Assembly: GCA_035758565.1 (NCBI GenBank)
Contig: DASTXL010000001.1
Span: 203,242 to 267,241, forward strand
DNA length: 64,000 bases
Origin: Candidatus Saccharimonadales bacterium
Lineage (GTDB): Bacteria; Patescibacteriota; Saccharimonadia; Saccharimonadales; UBA10212
Direction: 5' to 3'
Each line of letters starts with the position of its first letter. The first letter of the stretch is position 1. A program made the position numbers and the translations under genes. A model generated the notes under the pieces. It ran no database searches. It had not been told where the DNA came from and worked only from the letters and a program-made list of their open reading frames with translations. Positions 24,760 to 48,265 of this stretch are shown piece by piece.

Positions 24760-25413
24760 ATGTATTCACTACTCTTATTAGTTGTACTTTGGTTGGTTGT
24801 TTATCGGCACGGTCACCGCTCCGAACAAGAAATGGTGGTGATTCCGCAGCGAATTGGTAACCGTTTAACCAAACTTTGGGAAATAGCGCATATGGGTATG
24901 CGTGAGAATCGTTTATTACGCGCCGAAAAGGCCCTTTTGACCATTCTTAAAATCGACGAAAAGAACGCCGCCGCTTATAACCGCTTAGGCATTTTGTACG
25001 CTAAACAGCGTGAATACCGAGACGCTATCGACTGTTTTGAAATTGCTAGCTCCATCGAGCCAAGCGCTTCCAGCCTGCACAACCTGGGACTGATCTATTA
25101 CGAAACAGAGAATTATCAAAAGGCCGCTACCGCTTTCGAGCAAGCCCTTAAACTGGAAGATGAGCTGGCTGCCCGCCATATTGCCTATGCCAAAGTTCAG
25201 GAAAAATTAGGCAATGAGAAACTGATGATTCAGGAGCTGGAAAAATCCGCCGAACTTGAGCCAAACCGCGAAACGTATGCCTTGCTCACCAAAGCCTATG
25301 AAGCTCAAGGCATGGAAGACGAAGCCAAAGCCGCCCAAAAGAAACTTGATAAAATGTTGCTGCCGGCAGCAAAGCATAAACGAATCTTACGCCCCAAACG
25401 GGTGGTTATCTAA
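24760..25413 (+). CDS. TPR-repeat protein with an N-terminal TM helix
   Basis: N-terminus MYSLLLLVVLWLVVY. TPR-like AYNRLGILYAKQREYRDAIDCFEIA repeats. TGTTATAAT promoter upstream. Confidence 0.6.
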   Translation: MYSLLLLVVLWLVVYRHGHRSEQEMVVIPQRIGNRLTKLWEIAHMGMRENRLLRAEKALLTILKIDEKNAAAYNRLGILYAKQREYRDAIDCFEIASSIEPSASSLHNLGLIYYETENYQKAATAFEQALKLEDELAARHIAYAKVQEKLGNEKLMIQELEKSAELEPNRETYALLTKAYEAQGMEDEAKAAQKKLDKMLLPAAKHKRILRPKRVVI

Positions 25414-25865
25414 AAACACAACCTTACTACAGACAAATAAACCCAAATTATAACAAAACCAAAAACAAACAGGCTAAATAGAGTTAACGCAAAAGTTGCT
25501 TCAATCCTCACGCGCCTAATTTCAATTTTTGAAGCTAATTTATGAATCGAAAGCAAAAGCGTCGACGCTAATAAGACAATGGTTGCTAAACTAGAGATAA
25601 TCAGATAGGGATAGTACTTGGACGCTCCACAGGTGTCAGAAGATGGGTCGAGGTAGTTGGATAATAAAGTGAGTGCTGTAGCTACCAGCAGGCTGATAAA
25701 GGACGATCGTAGCCTGTGTCTGGCTACTGTCGACCAGGCCGTTTCTACTATCATTGCATAAGTATAGTACGGTTTAGATTTTTTACCGCAATATCTGGCA
25801 TTTTTACCTCTGTTTTGATAAACTAACTTCGAGCTTAACAAATAAGCTCTTTTTCTTGCCGACAT
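25410..25865 (-). CDS. Hypothetical multi-TM membrane protein (start uncertain)
   Basis: Hydrophobic ORF. The annotated ATG lies 8 nt inside tRNA-Thr, so the internal M at 25754 is an alternative start. Confidence 0.35.
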   Translation of the reverse strand: MSARKRAYLLSSKLVYQNRGKNARYCGKKSKPYYTYAMIVETAWSTVARHRLRSSFISLLVATALTLLSNYLDPSSDTCGASKYYPYLIISSLATIVLLASTLLLSIHKLASKIEIRRVRIEATFALTLFSLFVFGFVIIWVYLSVVRLCF

Positions 25866-25933
25866 AGCTCAGTGGCTAGAGCGGCTGTTTTGTAAACAGC
25901 GGGTCGTGGGTTCGAATCCCTCTGTCGGCTCCA
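25858..25933 (+). tRNA. tRNA-Thr (anticodon UGU)
   Basis: Manual cloverleaf: acceptor GCCGACA/TGTCGGC, D arm GCTC...GAGC, anticodon stem GCTGT/ACAGC with loop TTTGTAA, T-loop TTCGAAT, encoded CCA. Confidence 0.85.
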
Positions 25934-26085: not shown

Positions 26086-26103
26086 ATCCCTCTGTCGGCT
26101 CCA
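26086..26103 (+). repeat. Direct repeat of the tRNA-Thr(UGU) 3' end (18/18 nt)
   Basis: ATCCCTCTGTCGGCTCCA is identical to 25916-25933, and lies 152 nt after the tRNA end. Confidence 0.9.
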
Positions 26104-26197
26104 TTTTTTGAACGTGTTTGCGAGGGCGTTCAAGGTGAGGAAAGTTCAGGTGGGTGTTACATTGCTAACCGCACTATACTCTGCTATAGTGCGGTCT

Positions 26198-26602
26198 ATG
26201 CAGACTAAACAAAAGGGAGATCTAGCCCTAGCATCCGCAATTCAATATTTTGTCAGCCAGGATTACGAGGTCTGTCTGCCGATAGGAGACAAGCGTGACT
26301 ATGACTTAATAATTGAGAAGGGTGGCCAGCTGTCTAGGGTTCAGGTAAAGTACGCTGGCTTATACCTGCGCGGCAATCAATGTAAGGTGGGACTACGCAT
26401 AACTGGCGGAAATCAATCATTTCATTATGCAAAGAAATACATGGACGATGCCTTTGACGAGCTTTTTGTTTATACTGCTAAGGGTGAAATGTTCCTTTTG
26501 CCATGGAGTAAAGTAACCGCAAGAAATGAAATCAGTATCGAACATAAAAAATATGAAGTTTTTCGACTGCGCGGAGGTAGTGAAGCGGTCAAACACGTCT
26601 GA
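26198..26602 (+). CDS. PD-(D/E)XK endonuclease, I-Ssp6803I-like (PDDEXK_5-type) homing-endonuclease candidate
   Basis: Start at MQTKQKGDLALASAIQYF. The DYDLIIEKGGQLSRVQVKY core gives a D...(Q)VK motif. The last 32 nt, including the stop, overlap tRNA-Tyr. Confidence 0.55.
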   Translation: MQTKQKGDLALASAIQYFVSQDYEVCLPIGDKRDYDLIIEKGGQLSRVQVKYAGLYLRGNQCKVGLRITGGNQSFHYAKKYMDDAFDELFVYTAKGEMFLLPWSKVTARNEISIEHKKYEVFRLRGGSEAVKHV

Positions 26603-26656
26603 CTGTAAATCAGATGGCATTCGCCTTCGGGGGTTCGAATCCCTCCCTCCGCACCA
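26571..26656 (+). tRNA. tRNA-Tyr (anticodon GUA), class II with long variable arm
   Basis: Acceptor GCGGAGG/CCTCCGC, anticodon stem TCTGA/TCAGA with loop CTGTAAA, 14-nt variable arm, T-loop TTCGAAT, encoded CCA. Confidence 0.85.
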
Positions 26657-26832: not shown

Positions 26833-26850
26833 ATCCCTCCCCCTGCACCA
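26833..26850 (+). repeat. Imperfect direct repeat of the tRNA-Tyr 3' end (16/18 nt)
   Basis: ATCCCTCCCCCTGCACCA here compared with ATCCCTCCCTCCGCACCA at 26639-26656, 176 nt after the tRNA end. Confidence 0.75.
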
Positions 26851-27293: not shown

Positions 27294-28310
27294 ATGGACA
27301 AGTTTAAAGAGATTCTCGAAAAAGCAGCAAGTGTTTTGATTATTACCCATGTCGGGCCGGATCCTGACGCTTTTTGCTCTTTGCTTTTGACCGGAACTAC
27401 TTTAGAGGCAAACTATCCAGATAAAAAAATAGTTATGAGCTCAGAAGAACAAACCGGCGGGCTTAACTTCTTAACCGGTTATGGCAAGATTAAGCTTCAA
27501 AAACTCGCTGATGCTATCCAGAATGACCAACCGGACCTAATAATTATGGTCGATGCCATGAATTTTAAGCGCTGCACGCGTGGCGACGATCAAGAGATCG
27601 CCAAACTTGTCAAAGAAAAGCGCATCAAGCTAGCCATTATCGATCATCACGAAAGAGTCAACATTGAAGAAAATAACGTTTATATCAACCAAGACAGCCC
27701 AGCGGCCGTGCAAGATGTCTATGAGGTGATGTTTAGCGGCATAAAACTCAATAAACCAGTGGGTTATGCCCAAACCACTATGCTTGGTTTATACTCTGAC
27801 ACCGGCGGATTTGCCTACGAGAATAAACGCTACCGTGACACCTTGAAACTTGTAGGTGATTTGATAGAAGCCGGCGCCAGCGTGGAAAAGACCAGAAACC
27901 TACTCGATCGCTACAGCACCGACAGTATGCTCGCTCTAAGCGAACTGGCCCGCAACCTTAGCCATAAAGATGATTATTCGTTCAGCTTCGTGGGCGATGA
28001 TTTCACTAAAAACTGGCAAAATCAGGGAAAGAATTTTGACGAGCTCAAGATTGCTTGCGGCCATTTTGCTAATGACTACATTCGAAATATAGATGGCCGA
28101 GTCTGGGGCTTTGTGGTCTATAAGGATTTAGCCGGCGGAGACGATATTTACGGGGTTTCATTGCGCGCTATGGGCGGAACCAAGAACGTAGCTTTAATCG
28201 CCAACGCGCTTGGCGGTGGCGGCCACATTGCTGCTGCCGGAACGAAAATCAAAGCCAGTAGCGTGCAAGAAGTGATTAAAGCCGTACAATCTACCATTTC
28301 ACAGATGTAG
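27294..28310 (+). CDS. DHH-family phosphoesterase (NrnA-like)
   Basis: HVGPDPDA, IDHH and GGGGH motifs. Confidence 0.65.
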   Translation: MDKFKEILEKAASVLIITHVGPDPDAFCSLLLTGTTLEANYPDKKIVMSSEEQTGGLNFLTGYGKIKLQKLADAIQNDQPDLIIMVDAMNFKRCTRGDDQEIAKLVKEKRIKLAIIDHHERVNIEENNVYINQDSPAAVQDVYEVMFSGIKLNKPVGYAQTTMLGLYSDTGGFAYENKRYRDTLKLVGDLIEAGASVEKTRNLLDRYSTDSMLALSELARNLSHKDDYSFSFVGDDFTKNWQNQGKNFDELKIACGHFANDYIRNIDGRVWGFVVYKDLAGGDDIYGVSLRAMGGTKNVALIANALGGGGHIAAAGTKIKASSVQEVIKAVQSTISQM

Positions 28311-28329
28311 TTTGTGGTAAACTACTTCC

Positions 28330-28932
28330 ATGTCAAAAGATAGGACTACCATAAACAAAGTCACCCTAGAGACCTTGTATGTAAAAAAGGGGATGTCCAT
28401 GAGCACCATAGCCAAAGAGTTAGGGTGCTCGGTTAACAGGGTGGTCTATTGGATGGATCAACATGGTATTAAAAGGCGCAGCATTAGTGACGCCATTTAC
28501 TTGCACAAAAATCCCAATGGAGACCCGTTCAAAATAATAACGCCCACCACACTAGAAGAAGCCAAGCTTTTAGGCTTAGGAATCGGCCTCTACTGGGGTG
28601 AGGGCACGAAGGCAAATAAGCACTCTGTGCGTTTAGGAAACTCAAATCCACATTTAATCATCGCTTTTATAAAATTTCTTACTATAATATGCGGTGTCAA
28701 TAAAGACCATCTGAAATTTGGGTTGCAACTTTTTTCAGACGTCAGTAAGAATGAAGCCTTGAATTTCTGGACAGAAGCTCTTAGCGTAAAACCCTCGCAA
28801 TTTTATAAGATAACAGTTACTATATCTGGTGCGATTGGAACATACCGGATAAAAAATAAATACGGAGTGTTAACAATCTATTACCACAACAAGAAGCTAC
28901 GAGACGCTTTAGTCTCGATGTTGCCGACATAG
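28330..28932 (+). CDS. HTH + single-motif LAGLIDADG-like homing-endonuclease candidate
   Basis: N-terminal HTH (MSTIAKELGCSVNRVVYWM). LLGLGIGLYWGEGTK resembles a LAGLIDADG motif. The last 10 nt, including the stop, overlap tRNA-Thr(GGU). Confidence 0.45.
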   Translation: MSKDRTTINKVTLETLYVKKGMSMSTIAKELGCSVNRVVYWMDQHGIKRRSISDAIYLHKNPNGDPFKIITPTTLEEAKLLGLGIGLYWGEGTKANKHSVRLGNSNPHLIIAFIKFLTIICGVNKDHLKFGLQLFSDVSKNEALNFWTEALSVKPSQFYKITVTISGAIGTYRIKNKYGVLTIYYHNKKLRDALVSMLPT

Positions 28933-28997
28933 CTCAGGGGTAGAGCACGATCATGGTAAGATCGGGGTCATGGGTTCAAATCCCATTGTCGGCTCCA
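28923..28997 (+). tRNA. tRNA-Thr (anticodon GGU)
   Basis: Acceptor GCCGACA/TGTCGGC, anticodon stem CGATC/GATCG with loop ATGGTAA, T arm ATGGG-TTCAAAT-CCCAT, encoded CCA. Confidence 0.85.
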
Positions 28998-29403: not shown

Positions 29404-29476
29404 AACTAGCGGTTAATTTAAAACTGTTCTAAAATACTGGGGTCCCCGCAAATTTTAATTTGTGGGGTAATTCAAA

Positions 29477-29551
29477 GGGGAGTAGCTCAGTTGGTAGAGC
29501 ACCGGTCTCCAAAACCGGGTGTCGCAGGTTCAAGTCCTGTCTCCCCTGCCA
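29477..29551 (+). tRNA. tRNA-Trp (anticodon CCA)
   Basis: Acceptor GGGGAGT/CTCCCCT, anticodon stem CCGGT/ACCGG with loop CTCCAAA, T-loop TTCAAGT, encoded CCA. Confidence 0.85.
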
Positions 29552-29702
29552 AAATAAAGTAGTCTGTCGTAAAGACAGGCTGTTTTATTTTGATATGAGT
29601 TAGGACTTGAACCGATAGGCATGAATGGCCAGTAGGCTATTCATGTTTTCTTTGCTTGGCCGGCTCGGCCAATGCTTGCATTTTGGCCAGCCGCAGAATA
29701 AC

Positions 29703-29724
29703 TCAAGTCCTGTCTCCCCTGCCA
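29703..29724 (+). repeat. Direct repeat of the tRNA-Trp 3' end (22/22 nt)
   Basis: TCAAGTCCTGTCTCCCCTGCCA is identical to 29530-29551. An inverted copy of the T-arm (AGGACTTGAACC) lies at 29602-29613. Confidence 0.9.
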
Positions 29725-29758
29725 AGACGACCGCCTAATTATAGACGGTCGTCTTTTT
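29725..29758 (+). terminator. Rho-independent terminator after the duplicated tRNA-Trp end
   Basis: AGACGACCG...CGGTCGTCT stem followed by TTTT. Confidence 0.6.
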
Positions 29759-48025: not shown

Positions 48026-48265
48026 TCTGTTACCGTGTCTTAATGGGAGATATGCCCGCTTAGACTGTTGCCTAACAGAGTTAATTTTGCTAATATATCC
48101 AGGAACTTGAGCCAAAGACAGCGACGGGGAAACCTTAATAAAGTCGCCTAGGAACAAGAAAGTCTTATAGATTTTTACGTTAGTCTTTTGGCCATAATAG
48201 GCCATTTTTTATAGCTCAAGACACCTTAACAAATTGGTCGATATTGTTAAACAAGGAGAAAACTC
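48026..48265 (+). promoter_or_regulatory. Long untranslated leader upstream of rplJ (candidate L10 autoregulatory leader)
   Basis: 240 nt without a credible ORF, ending in an AAGGAGAAAA SD. L10-leader regulation is known in many bacteria, but no structure was verified here. Confidence 0.25.

What the first reader, a model, noticed from the sequence alone, without database searches (positions are those of the whole stretch)
28330..28932. HTH + LAGLIDADG-like ORF whose stop codon lies inside tRNA-Thr(GGU)
This 200-aa ORF has an N-terminal helix-turn-helix and a single LAGLIDADG-like motif (LLGLGIGLYWGEGTK). It ends 10 nt inside the acceptor stem of tRNA-Thr(GGU). It is the second case within 2.5 kb of an endonuclease-like gene abutting the 5' end of a tRNA. 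A minus-strand ORF start also overlaps the 5' end of tRNA-Thr(UGU). Both Thr tRNAs share the identical 5' sequence GCCGACATAGCTCAG, a possible common target.
Basis: partly seen in the sequence, partly recalled or inferred. Interest (0 to 1): 0.55.

Follow-up and report, generated by a model that had tools for sequence, protein, structure and literature searches.

The report
Mobile endonuclease gene fused to tRNA-Thr
This 200-residue gene belongs to a large unnamed family of probable selfish DNA-cutting enzymes found across the ultra-small CPR bacteria; the family always sits directly against the threonine tRNA(GGU) gene, which in about half of the sampled species also carries a self-splicing-type intron.

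Summary
ORF 28330-28932 (+) ends in a TAG formed by U8-A9-G10 of tRNA-Thr(GGU) (28923-28997). It has an N-terminal HTH and a conserved GLGxGLYWGEGxK motif.

The overlap is not a local accident. In 79 of the 80 related loci fetched (of 311 GTDB species with a relative, all CPR/Patescibacteria), the homolog is followed directly by tRNA-Thr(GGU). In 44 of these the tRNA carries an ORF-less ~200-nt group I intron after U36.

Six close relatives with the same gene order lack the ORF. Their tRNA has the anticodon arm CCTCC-ATGGTAA-GGAGG; the window has CGATC-ATGGTAA-GATCG. Identity between homologs barely tracks host relatedness, and dN/dS is 0.05-0.13.

A diversified family profile hits the LAGLIDADG enzyme I-DmoI (E 1e-5), with the family Glu aligned to E117. 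Pfam and Foldseek give no significant match. Phage relatives lie in tRNA arrays.

Best reading: a free-standing homing endonuclease of a divergent, unannotated LAGLIDADG-like family. It most likely targets the anticodon arm of the tRNA-Thr(GGU) gene. Its own genome is protected by the intron (collaborative homing) or, as here, by a variant anticodon stem.

Cleavage activity is untested.

The parts
28330..28932 (+). 200-aa ORF, including its stop codon: probable free-standing homing endonuclease of an unannotated HTH + LAGLIDADG-like family
   Evidence: ORF list and sequence. 1151 homologs, all named 'hypothetical'. dN/dS 0.05-0.13 between family members. Absent from six syntenic close relatives.
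28354..28500 (+). N-terminal helix-turn-helix DNA-binding module (aa 9-57)
   Evidence: Sub-threshold Pfam HTH_23/HTH_36/HTH_38 hits. phrog_7545 and phrog_8446, both annotated 'HNH endonuclease', at E 1.5e-10 and 2.8e-9. About 44% identity to haloviral HNH endonucleases. AF2 model shows helices at 10-19, 24-31, 35-45 and 52-60.
28531..28929 (+). C-terminal LAGLIDADG-like domain (aa 68-200)
   Evidence: AF2 pLDDT 89, pTM 0.83, topology a-b-a-b-a-b-b-a. Profile A6 hits I-DmoI residues 106-149 at E 9.6e-6; hhalign probability 76%. A phage relative gives a sub-threshold Pfam LAGLIDADG_3 hit, E 7.7e-4. No significant Foldseek match.
28567..28611 (+). Motif LLGLGIGLYWGEGTK (aa 80-94), with the candidate catalytic Glu91 and with Lys94
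   Evidence: Invariant G82, G84, G86, Y88, W89, G90, E91, G92. E and G of GEG are invariant even with phage relatives included. The motif aligns to GLYVAEGDK of I-DmoI, so Glu91 matches E117.
28923..28997 (+). Intronless tRNA-Thr(GGU). Its first 10 nt encode the last codons and the stop of the ORF.
   Evidence: ARAGORN and Rfam. It differs at 16-17 of 75 positions from the near-invariant tRNA of relatives lacking the endonuclease gene (HEG-minus). It differs at only 4 of 75 from the tRNA of the distant HEG-plus locus L081.
28948..28964 (+). Anticodon arm CGATC-ATGGTAA-GATCG: the inferred endonuclease target region, here in a variant and presumably immune form. In other species the intron is inserted after the anticodon GGT (28955-28957 here).
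   Evidence: HEG-minus relatives carry CCTCC-ATGGTAA-GGAGG in 6 of 6 cases. TCC at positions 29-31 occurs in 43 of 44 intron-containing alleles and in 5 of 37 intronless HEG-plus alleles. That this is the target is inferred, not tested.
28311..28922 (+). Segment present in the window but absent from six syntenic relatives (the DHH-tRNA spacer replaced by the ORF)
   Evidence: Alignment A4. tblastn with the window protein finds nothing in L082-L095.
28647..28675 (+). Promoter-like site inside the ORF (TCCACA-17-TAAAAT) that could drive the tRNA
   Evidence: Consensus scan only, 9 of 12 positions matched. Weak evidence. There is no intergenic space for a tRNA promoter between the ORF and the tRNA.
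26108..26602 (+). Neighbouring PD-(D/E)XK (PDDEXK_5) endonuclease-like ORF between tRNA-Thr(UGU) and tRNA-Tyr. It overlaps tRNA-Tyr by 32 nt; the likely start is the ATG at 26201.
   Evidence: Pfam PF11645, E 1.4e-20. Same position in L005, L047, L050, L070, L072 and L086/87. Absent in L081, L084, L089-L091 and L095.
26571..26656 (+). tRNA-Tyr(GUA), abutted by the PDDEXK_5 ORF
25858..25933 (+). tRNA-Thr(UGU). It is vertically inherited and is context only.
   Evidence: It differs at 3-4 of 77 positions from close relatives.

Best explanation
ORF 28330-28932 most likely encodes a free-standing homing endonuclease: an HTH DNA-binding module followed by one divergent LAGLIDADG-like domain. By analogy with single-motif LAGLIDADG enzymes it would act as a homodimer. 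Its family is specialised on the tRNA-Thr(GGU) gene of CPR bacteria.

Shown:
- The gene is an insertion between the DHH gene and the tRNA. Close relatives lack it.
- Across the family the gene is pressed against the 5' end of tRNA-Thr(GGU), so that the tRNA supplies its last codons and its stop.
- The protein is under strong purifying selection, and its similarity between genomes barely follows host relatedness.
- The window's tRNA-Thr(GGU) is itself foreign-looking.

Inferred:
- The enzyme cuts the DNA of the tRNA's anticodon arm (roughly N-TCC-ATGGTAA-GGA-N, a natural pseudo-palindrome) in genomes that lack the gene.
- Repair from a donor copies the endonuclease gene, which lies only about 36 nt from the break, together with the donor's protected tRNA allele.
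[quoted passage not shown] In the window's clade it comes from a rewritten anticodon stem (CGATC/GATCG instead of CCTCC/GGAGG), as in intronless homing.

Speculative:
- There is no spacer for a tRNA promoter, so the tRNA must be made from a transcript that crosses the ORF. RNase P cleavage at 28922/28923 would then remove the ORF's stop codon and limit endonuclease expression.
For: Family-wide linkage:
- 79 of 80 loci have tRNA-Thr(GGU) directly after the ORF.
- The stop lies inside the tRNA in 64 of 81 loci, in three different reading registers.
- Relatives at 30-40% identity still read through a tRNA-Thr(GGU).

Mobility:
- Six syntenic relatives (neighbouring TPR protein 80-85% identical) lack the gene.
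- The best non-self homolog is 68% identical, whereas the TPR neighbour has more than 100 relatives at 79% or above.
- Identity between homologs stays at 53-58% while host L33 identity ranges from below 40% to 90%.
- Some ORFs end in foreign stubs of a tRNA 5' end (L018, L032, L050).
- In L032 the cassette is bracketed by a copy of tRNA positions 1-25 and the full tRNA.

Target inference:
- TCC at positions 29-31 occurs in 43 of 44 intron-containing alleles, 6 of 6 HEG-minus relatives and 5 of 37 intronless HEG-plus alleles. Fisher p is 4e-16 and 8e-5; phylogenetic non-independence is not corrected.
- The window tRNA-Thr(GGU) differs at 16-17 of 75 positions from relatives, while tRNA-Thr(UGU) differs at 3-4 of 77.

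Intron:
- The alignment supports P1-P9, the P3/P7 pseudoknot, an invariant U.G at the 5' splice site and a terminal G in all 37 sequences aligned. 96% of cells are paired, 39 pairs show compensatory changes, and 0 of 500 shuffles reach the observed values.

Nuclease kinship:
- Profile A6 hits I-DmoI at E 9.6e-6, with the family Glu aligned to E117.
- A phage member gives a LAGLIDADG_3 hit at E 7.7e-4.
- The HTH module is shared with phage HNH endonucleases.
- Eight phage relatives all sit in tRNA arrays.

Function is maintained: dN/dS is 0.05-0.13.

Against: - No cleavage has been shown, and the target is inferred from comparative patterns only.
- Pfam LAGLIDADG models miss the window protein and 35 relatives.
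- The confident AF2 model has an a-b-a-b-a-b-b-a order rather than the canonical a-b-b-a-b-b-a. No Foldseek hit reaches E 1e-3.
- The I-DmoI match covers only about 45 residues.
- Five intronless HEG-plus loci keep the supposedly sensitive TCC/GGA stem beside an intact motif (L020, L040, L051, L061, L080).
- The HEG-minus sample is one clade of six genomes.
- No pair of near-identical endonuclease genes in distant hosts was found; the maximum is 62% identity where L33 identity is below 40%.
- Very strong purifying selection and a near-universal genomic position would also fit a domesticated host function.
- The locus sample was drawn with the GLYWGEG and FGLQIF patterns, so degenerate copies are under-sampled.
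Confidence: 0.62

Rival explanations
1. The protein is a homing endonuclease, but its target is the 5' end of the tRNA (GCCGACATAGCTCAG) or the junction just upstream of it. Insertion of the gene at that junction would destroy the site.
For: - The gene is always inserted exactly at the tRNA 5' end.
- ORFs that are separated from the tRNA still end in a stub of 10-13 nt of a tRNA 5' end.
- The 5' region of the tRNA is highly conserved, which would make it an attractive target.
Against: - The 15-mer is intact twice in the window, in both Thr tRNAs, so a site lying within it would be self-lethal.
- In HEG-minus relatives the sequence upstream of the tRNA is not conserved (alignment A4), which makes a junction-spanning site hard to maintain across CPR.
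- The allele differences that correlate with endonuclease and intron status lie in the anticodon stem, not in the acceptor or D arm.
- The breakpoint in L032 is at tRNA position 25/26.
Confidence: 0.12
2. The protein is a domesticated LAGLIDADG-like factor that no longer cuts DNA. It would act on RNA as a maturase or chaperone for the tRNA-Thr(GGU) precursor and its group I intron, or as a regulator of the tRNA's transcription.
For: - dN/dS of 0.05-0.13 is as low as for housekeeping genes.
- 44 of 80 loci carry an ORF-less intron in the adjacent tRNA.
- LAGLIDADG maturases are an established class (mentioned in PMC11270868).
- The predicted fold deviates from canonical LAGLIDADG.
- The gene and the tRNA must be co-transcribed.
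Against: - 37 of 81 loci, including the window, have no intron to mature.
- The gene is dispensable: six close relatives make the same tRNA without it.
- The acidic residue aligned with catalytic E117 of I-DmoI is invariant in the sampled family.
- Phage relatives sit in tRNA arrays, as known free-standing endonuclease genes do.
- The foreign tRNA allele in the window is what gene conversion predicts. It is not what a maturase predicts.
Confidence: 0.14
3. The ORF is cargo of a different kind of mobile element that targets tRNA genes, for example an integrative element or transposon moved by a recombinase encoded elsewhere. The HTH protein would be an accessory DNA-binding factor.
For: - tRNA genes are classic integration sites.
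- The window shows att-like duplications of the 3' ends of three other tRNAs.
- In L081 a serine recombinase abuts the 3' end of tRNA-Thr(GGU).
Against: - The inserted segment is essentially just the ORF, about 600 nt.
- No terminal repeats or recombinase accompany it in the window or in most loci.
- Integrases target tRNA 3' ends, whereas this gene is always at the 5' end.
- There is no direct repeat flanking the ORF in the window.
Confidence: 0.04

Closest known systems
[quoted passage not shown]
   Same: [quoted passage not shown]
- The inferred target coincides with the intron insertion site, so the intron protects the carrier genome.
- Endonuclease gene and intron are tightly linked, here about 36 nt apart.
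   Different: - The host is a cellular (CPR bacterial) chromosome and the gene is a tRNA, not a phage protein-coding gene.
- The endonuclease is LAGLIDADG-like, not Endo VII-like or HNH.
- The ORF physically overlaps exon 1 of the target gene.
- About half of the carriers, including this window, have no intron at all.
- Cleavage at the insertion site is not demonstrated here.
Intronless homing by free-standing endonucleases in T4-type phages, including SegB in the T4 tRNA gene cluster (SegB is recalled from memory; the general pathway is in PMC3984707 and PMC2988022)
   Same: - A free-standing endonuclease gene is inserted between or next to tRNA genes.
- The donor is protected by sequence differences at the target.
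- Flanking markers, here the whole tRNA allele, are co-converted.
- Distant relatives of this family lie in phage tRNA arrays.
   Different: - SegB is a GIY-YIG enzyme.
- The present family is chromosomal in bacteria, is fixed to one particular tRNA across a whole phylum-level radiation, and shares its stop codon with the tRNA.
I-DmoI and other LAGLIDADG homing endonucleases; single-domain CPR rRNA-intron enzymes such as I-ShaI (PMC11270868)
   Same: - The motif helix ends in an acidic residue followed by Gly, and is followed by a strand and helix alpha2. This region gives a significant profile match to I-DmoI residues 106-149.
- One motif per chain implies a homodimer acting on a pseudo-palindromic site.
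- CPR bacteria are already known to be rich in single-domain LAGLIDADG enzymes.
   Different: - The protein is not intron-encoded.
- It has an extra N-terminal HTH module.
- Pfam LAGLIDADG_1/_2/_3 do not reach threshold.
- The predicted strand and helix order after alpha2 differs from the canonical fold.
- There is no significant Foldseek match.
I-Ssp6803I, the PD-(D/E)XK endonuclease of the cyanobacterial tRNA-fMet group I intron (cited as B105 in PMC3984707)
   Same: - It is an endonuclease whose target is the anticodon region of a tRNA gene carrying a group I intron just after the anticodon.
- The window's neighbouring ORF 26108-26602 belongs to the same Pfam family, PDDEXK_5.
   Different: - I-Ssp6803I is encoded inside the intron and has a different fold.
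- The ORF studied here lies outside the tRNA and is LAGLIDADG-like.

Membership tests
LAGLIDADG homing endonucleases | LAGLIDADG motif: a helix ending in a conserved acidic residue followed by Gly | tested here: met
   The motif is L80-K94, LLGLGIGLYWGEGTK. G86, L87, Y88, W89, G90, E91 and G92 occupy the nine-residue pattern, and the motif is invariant in 33 homologs. E and G are invariant even with phage relatives included. AF2 places residues 75-91 in one long helix.
LAGLIDADG homing endonucleases | Significant sequence or profile similarity to characterised members | tested here: met
   hmmsearch with profile A6 against PDB returns I-DmoI as the only significant hit: E 9.6e-6, residues 106-149. 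hhalign gives probability 76% and E 2.2e-5. The match covers only about 45 residues (motif, strand, helix alpha2). The window protein alone and the narrow profile A1 find nothing.
LAGLIDADG homing endonucleases | Match to the curated Pfam models (LAGLIDADG_1, _2, _3) above their gathering scores | tested here: not met
   There is no LAGLIDADG hit at E up to 1 for the window protein. None appears among the 25 families matched by the most members when 36 diverse relatives were scanned at E up to 0.1. One phage relative reaches LAGLIDADG_3 at 20.1 bits, below the cut-off of 22.5.
LAGLIDADG homing endonucleases | The alpha-beta-beta-alpha-beta-beta-alpha core fold with a four-stranded DNA-binding saddle | tested here: inconclusive
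   The AF2 model of the domain (pLDDT 89) has the order a-b-a-b-a-b-b-a. Foldseek finds no match at E 1e-3 or better in PDB or BFVD. The alignments with the lowest rmsd and highest probability are intein or DOD-type endonucleases (7qss, probability 0.99, rmsd 4.4; a Harvfovirus RNA polymerase, presumed to carry an intein, TM 0.49, rmsd 3.6).
LAGLIDADG homing endonucleases | Mg-dependent site-specific double-strand cleavage leaving 4-nt 3' overhangs | not testable with these tools
   This requires the purified protein and DNA substrates.
Free-standing homing endonuclease gene (mobile by gene conversion) | Presence/absence polymorphism at a fixed site among related genomes | tested here: met
   The window carries the gene. 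L084, L086, L089, L090, L091 and L095 keep the same synteny but lack it, and tblastn finds nothing there.
Free-standing homing endonuclease gene (mobile by gene conversion) | Phylogeny decoupled from the host, and co-conversion of flanking DNA | tested here: met
   Identity between homologs is nearly flat against host L33 identity. The window's tRNA-Thr(GGU) differs at 16-17 of 75 positions from relatives but at 4 of 75 from the tRNA of distant locus L081. Its tRNA-Thr(UGU) follows the host. No recent cross-phylum transfer (above 90% identity) was seen.
Free-standing homing endonuclease gene (mobile by gene conversion) | The target site is present in genomes lacking the gene and is altered or interrupted in genomes carrying it | tested here: inconclusive
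   The pattern fits the anticodon arm. TCC/GGA is intact in 6 of 6 HEG-minus relatives, interrupted by the intron in 43 of 44 intron-containing alleles, and changed in 32 of 37 intronless carriers. There are five exceptions, and no cleavage data exist.
Collaborative homing system (endonuclease plus ORF-less group I intron) | [quoted passage not shown] | tested here: not met
   In the window the tRNA is intronless (75 nt). In the wider family the feature is met in 44 of 80 loci, where the intron architecture is supported by covariation. The window is therefore a relative of such systems, not an instance of one.
Group I intron (the tRNA-Thr insertion in related loci) | P1-P9 core with the P3/P7 pseudoknot, U.G at the 5' splice site and a terminal G | tested here: met
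   RNAalifold plus the added P3 helix give 96% of cells paired, 39 pairs with changes on both sides, 0 of 500 shuffles reaching the observed values, and slid controls at 34-45% paired. U36.G is invariant. Rfam RF00028 does not detect the intron. Self-splicing is untested.

The most novel reading that the evidence does not exclude
A selfish endonuclease family has been locked onto one essential tRNA gene across the whole CPR radiation and is reshaping that tRNA. Genomes survive it either by keeping a ribozyme intron in the anticodon loop or by rewriting the anticodon stem with compensated base-pair changes, which would be an endonuclease-tRNA arms race. The endonuclease's own expression would be gated by tRNA processing, because RNase P cleavage removes its stop codon. 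This would be the first cellular case of collaborative homing, and a nuclease domain distant enough from canonical LAGLIDADG to count as a new subfamily.
Probability: 0.3. Interest if true: 0.8.

Novelty: new variant of a known kind. Interest (0 to 1): 0.63.

Why it matters
- More than a thousand 'hypothetical proteins' of CPR bacteria would gain a function. They would define a new, compact HTH + LAGLIDADG-like endonuclease subfamily with a natural tRNA-gene specificity, which is of interest for meganuclease engineering.
- Collaborative homing is so far documented only in phages. This would extend it to bacterial chromosomes and to a tRNA gene.
- It would be a concrete case in which a selfish element appears to drive compensated sequence change in the anticodon stem of an essential tRNA.
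- There is a practical consequence. In 44 of 80 sampled species the tRNA-Thr(GGU) gene carries a group I intron that default ARAGORN and Rfam miss, so this tRNA is likely scored as missing in many CPR genome annotations.
- No paper found in the searchable library describes tRNA introns or tRNA-linked endonucleases in CPR. The closest study, PMC11270868, covers rRNA genes only.

Tried and rejected
- Pfam, NCBIfam and a PDB sequence search with the window protein alone gave only weak HTH hits. The narrow family profile A1 against PDB also gave nothing.
- Foldseek on the full-length model and on the C-terminal domain model, against PDB and BFVD, found no significant match. The top-ranked IspF and OmpA-like hits are topological look-alikes with rmsd 5-8 Å and were dismissed.
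- hhalign of the family against I-CreI found nothing.
- Rfam gave no group I intron call in intron-containing loci, at gathering score or at E up to 10. It gave none in viral loci sharing the intron-core pattern either. The intron claim therefore rests on covariation analysis.
It yielded no allele without the gene, so those alleles were obtained through homologs of the neighbouring TPR protein instead.
- The minus-strand ORF 25410-25865 was rejected as a third endonuclease case. It has no homologs and only weak DUF996-type hits, and its ATG is the complement of CAT inside the tRNA.
- A search for tRNA 5' stubs upstream of the ORFs, which would be a general insertion signature, found only one case, L032.
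- No direct repeats flank the ORF in the window, which argues against a transposon or integrative-element origin.
Full report
**1. What is in the window**

The window comes from a Candidatus Saccharimonadales (CPR/Patescibacteria) genome. The ORF product is 100% identical to an NCBI 'hypothetical protein' from such a MAG.

ARAGORN and Rfam place four tRNAs here:
- tRNA-Thr(UGU) at 25858-25933
- tRNA-Tyr at 26571-26656
- tRNA-Thr(GGU) at 28923-28997
- tRNA-Trp at 29476-29551

The 200-aa ORF runs 28330-28932 (+) and ends ...TTG CCG ACA TAG. Its stop codon is therefore tRNA positions U8-A9-G10, a 10-nt overlap. Only 19 nt separate the ORF from the stop of the upstream DHH/DHHA1 gene (27294-28310).

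**2. The overlap is a property of the whole family**

The protein has 1151 homologs in the clustered protein database. All are unnamed, about 194 aa long, and the nearest non-self hit is 68% identical. The exhaustive representative search finds 127 clusters at E below 1e-30.

In an alignment of 33 homologs the C-termini read (M/L)LP(T/R/K/M)-stop. That is the translation of a tRNA start GCCGNNNTAG.

A scan of one genome per GTDB species found 311 species with a relative, and 80 loci were fetched. They span Saccharibacteria, Peribacteria, Moraniibacteriota, Lipton-, Andersen-, Jorgensen-, Azam-, Jackson- and Colwellbacteria and Paceibacterota.

In 79 of these 80 loci the ORF is followed at once by tRNA-Thr(GGU). 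Counting 81 loci (78 of those 79, plus the window, L081 and L041), the stop lies inside the tRNA in 64:
- 51 with a 10-nt overlap
- 5 with 21 nt
- 4 with 38 nt
- single cases with 11, 83, 84 and 104 nt

All three reading registers therefore occur. In the other 17 loci a gap of 5-116 nt follows, and in several of these (for example L007, L018, L032, L050) the ORF then ends in a short stub of a tRNA 5' end. Relatives at 30-40% identity still carry tails such as VAQLVEHxHGKxxVxGSxP, which are read-throughs of a tRNA whose anticodon loop is CAT-GGT-AAG.

**3. An unexpected partner: a group I intron**

Default ARAGORN saw no tRNA in about half of the loci. The sequence shows why. The tRNA is interrupted immediately after the anticodon (…ATGGT | intron …G | AAGGA…) by 165-230 nt with no ORF. 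ARAGORN run with introns allowed finds 44 such genes.

An alignment of 37 of them folds into the tRNA cloverleaf plus P1, P2, P4, P5, P6, P7, P8 and P9. Adding P3, which forms the hallmark pseudoknot with P7, gives these results:
- 96% of cells are paired
- 39 pairs change on both sides
- 0 of 500 shuffles reach the observed values
- slid controls pair at only 34-45%
- the U36.G wobble at the 5' splice site is invariant
- the intron ends in G in all 37 aligned sequences

Rfam does not recognise the intron, so this is a group I architecture supported by covariation. Splicing is untested. The window's own tRNA has no intron.

**4. The gene is an insertion and behaves like mobile DNA**

The neighbouring TPR protein (24760-25413) has more than 100 relatives at 79-90% identity. 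Contigs for six of them keep the order TPR - tRNA-Thr(UGU) - tRNA-Tyr - (NUDIX) - DHH - tRNA-Thr(GGU) - L33 - … - SecE - NusG. These are L084, L086, L089, L090, L091 and L095. All have only 28-150 nt between DHH and the tRNA. tblastn with the window protein finds nothing in them.

Across 34 loci that also carry L33, identity between endonuclease homologs is almost flat while host L33 identity rises:
- about 53% where L33 identity is below 40%
- about 58% where L33 identity is 80-90%
- about 65% where L33 identity is above 90%

The closest hosts (L021 and L060, NusG 94-95% identical) carry copies only 54-58% identical to the window's.

dN/dS between family members is 0.05-0.13, so the protein is functional, not decaying.

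**5. The tRNA next to it is foreign and differs where it matters**

All six relatives without the gene share a nearly invariant tRNA-Thr(GGU) with the arm CCTCC-ATGGTAA-GGAGG. The window has CGATC-ATGGTAA-GATCG, which is three fully compensated base-pair changes.

- The window's tRNA-Thr(GGU) differs from those relatives at 16-17 of 75 positions.
- Its tRNA-Thr(UGU) differs from theirs at only 3-4 of 77.
- Its tRNA-Thr(GGU) differs at just 4 of 75 from that of L081. L081 is a carrier whose TPR is 49% identical and whose tRNA-Thr(UGU) differs at 13 of 77.

Family-wide, positions 29-31 read TCC in the following proportions:
- 43 of 44 intron-containing alleles
- 6 of 6 alleles from relatives without the gene
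- 5 of 37 intronless carrier alleles

The Fisher p-values are 4e-16 and 8e-5, not corrected for relatedness. By average-linkage clustering the window's protein falls in an all-intronless Saccharimonadales group. Its members have many different stems (TTTGC, CGAAC, CACGC, TGTGC, TCTGC, CGTCA, CATCA, …).

In L032 a copy of tRNA positions 1-25 lies 75 nt upstream of the ORF. The cassette is thus bracketed by a tRNA fragment that breaks at the 5' edge of the anticodon stem. This is a single anecdote, but it is consistent with a break in that arm.

**6. What kind of protein**

*N-terminal module.* The first ~57 residues form an HTH. They match PHROG families annotated as HNH endonucleases (E 1.5e-10 and 2.8e-9). 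They also match haloviral HNH endonucleases at about 44% identity. This is a DNA-binding module shared among homing endonucleases.

*C-terminal domain.* It carries the invariant GxGxGLYWGEGxK.

Negative results:
- Pfam, NCBIfam and PDB searches with the single protein or the narrow profile find nothing for this domain.
- Two confident AF2 models (pLDDT 89) give the order a-b-a-b-a-b-b-a, and no Foldseek hit reaches E 1e-3. The best-fitting alignments are intein or DOD-type endonucleases.

Positive results:
- Eight distant relatives (23-31% identity) occur on 100-500-kb viral contigs, all inside tRNA gene arrays. Several run into a neighbouring tRNA.
- One of these gives a near-threshold Pfam LAGLIDADG_3 hit (E 7.7e-4).
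- A profile combining CPR and phage domains (A6) finds I-DmoI as the only significant PDB hit. E is 9.6e-6 over residues 106-149, the second LAGLIDADG motif plus a strand and helix alpha2. hhalign gives probability 76%.
- The family's GLYWGEGxK aligns with I-DmoI's GLYVAEGDK. The invariant Glu91 therefore matches E117, which I recall from the I-DmoI literature as one of its two catalytic acidic residues.

I therefore call the domain a divergent LAGLIDADG-like domain. The motif and the profile similarity are met, the curated Pfam thresholds are not met, and the fold is inconclusive.

**7. Most likely mechanism**

The gene is a free-standing homing endonuclease gene.

*Inferred steps.* A homodimer recognises the pseudo-palindromic DNA of the anticodon arm of tRNA-Thr(GGU) in naive genomes. 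The break is repaired from a carrier. The endonuclease gene lies about 36 nt away and is copied together with the carrier's protected tRNA allele.

*Protection.* In about half of the sampled species protection comes from the group I intron. This matches collaborative homing as described for F-CphI/psbA and MobE (PMC6083498, PMC2790892, PMC3984707). In the window's clade protection comes from a changed anticodon stem, as in intronless homing. [quoted passage not shown]

*Expression (speculative).* No spacer is left for a tRNA promoter. One weak internal promoter-like site is at 28647-28675. The tRNA must therefore be cut out of a transcript that crosses the ORF. RNase P cleavage would then remove the ORF's stop codon, which could limit endonuclease expression.

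**8. What speaks against this reading**

- No biochemistry exists.
- Five intronless carriers retain the TCC/GGA stem beside an intact motif.
- The sample of genomes without the gene is a single clade.
- The locus sample was selected with the conserved motif as bait.
- No recent long-range transfer was caught.
- Strong purifying selection together with a fixed position also fits a domesticated RNA- or DNA-binding role.

The rival explanations are listed with confidences. It is intact twice in the carrier genome, and in tRNA-Thr(UGU) it is simply inherited.

**9. The second endonuclease**

ORF 26108-26602 (probable start at 26201) is a PDDEXK_5 protein, the Pfam family of I-Ssp6803I. It overlaps tRNA-Tyr by 32 nt. 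It recurs in the same place, between tRNA-Thr(UGU) and tRNA-Tyr, in L005, L047, L050, L070, L072 and L086/87. It is absent in L081, L084, L089-L091 and L095.

**10. Novelty**

Free-standing endonuclease genes, collaborative homing, tRNA group I introns and CPR LAGLIDADG enzymes in rRNA introns are all known. The most relevant CPR study does not mention tRNA at all (PMC11270868). Literature searches found no description of tRNA-Thr introns or tRNA-linked endonucleases in CPR, although the library is incomplete.

The combination found here is best filed as a new variant of a known kind. It comprises:
- an unannotated, divergent LAGLIDADG-like family
- a chromosomal location, locked onto one tRNA across a whole radiation
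- a stop codon shared with the tRNA
- protection by either an intron or a changed stem

Noticed in passing
window 25916-25933 and 26086-26103; 26639-26656 and 26833-26850; 29530-29552 and 29703-29725: The 3' ends of tRNA-Thr(UGU), tRNA-Tyr and tRNA-Trp (18-23 nt) are each repeated 170-194 nt downstream, at 100%, 89% and 100% identity. The Trp insert also holds an inverted copy of the T arm (29597-29613). In L086 no such duplicate is seen in the ~100 nt read downstream of tRNA-Trp. These look like att-like scars of small elements that target tRNA 3' ends, but they remain unexplained.
   Followed up: partly
window 26108-26602 (+): A PDDEXK_5 endonuclease-like ORF lies between tRNA-Thr(UGU) and tRNA-Tyr and overlaps tRNA-Tyr by 32 nt. 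The same position is occupied in six other species and is empty in at least six, so it is a second mobile cassette in the same tRNA cluster.
   Followed up: partly
L005-L079 (44 loci), e.g. L010 1513-1785: tRNA-Thr(GGU) of many CPR species contains an ORF-less 165-230-nt group I intron after U36. Default ARAGORN and Rfam's tRNA and group I models miss these genes. ARAGORN with introns allowed often mislabels them as Arg or His. This tRNA is therefore probably reported as missing in many CPR annotations.
   Followed up: yes
L108-L115 (viral contigs of 100-500 kb): Distant relatives (23-31% identity, same HTH + GLYWGEG layout) all sit inside phage tRNA gene arrays. Several run into the 3' end of a tRNA on the opposite strand.
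   Followed up: partly
L096-L107 (viral contigs): The intron-core pattern GAACGACTGRCAAGG…ATACAGTCTA occurs in 12 viral contigs. ARAGORN calls no tRNA at the match (only L097 has tRNAs, ~8 kb away), and Rfam finds no group I intron there. The host genes were not examined.
   Followed up: no
L081 11044-12636 (-): A 530-aa serine-recombinase-like ORF overlaps the 3' end of tRNA-Thr(GGU). This suggests an integrated element at the other end of the same tRNA.
   Followed up: no
L032 5926-5950: A 25-nt copy of tRNA-Thr(GGU) positions 1-25 lies 75 nt upstream of the endonuclease ORF, and the complete tRNA follows the ORF. The breakpoint is at the 5' edge of the anticodon stem. Only this one case was found.
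   Followed up: yes
proteins P0126, P0135, P0144, P0149, P0152 and others: Long proteins of 350-820 aa are made of 5-14 tandem copies of the N-terminal HTH module of this family. Their function is unknown.
   Followed up: no
proteins P0121, P0131, P0154, P0174: Some family members carry an extra N-terminal Cys-rich extension of about 75 aa (C..C…yCS.sCa). It is possibly a zinc-ribbon DNA-binding add-on.
   Followed up: no
window 25410-25865 (-): This 151-aa ORF has a start codon that is the complement of CAT at positions 6-8 of tRNA-Thr(UGU). It has no homolog in any of the loci fetched by then and only weak DUF996-type hits. It is probably spurious or lineage-specific and is not endonuclease-like.
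   Followed up: yes
window 48094-48218 (+): A ribosomal protein L10 leader (RF00557) scores just at its gathering score, 44.1 bits against 44.
   Followed up: no
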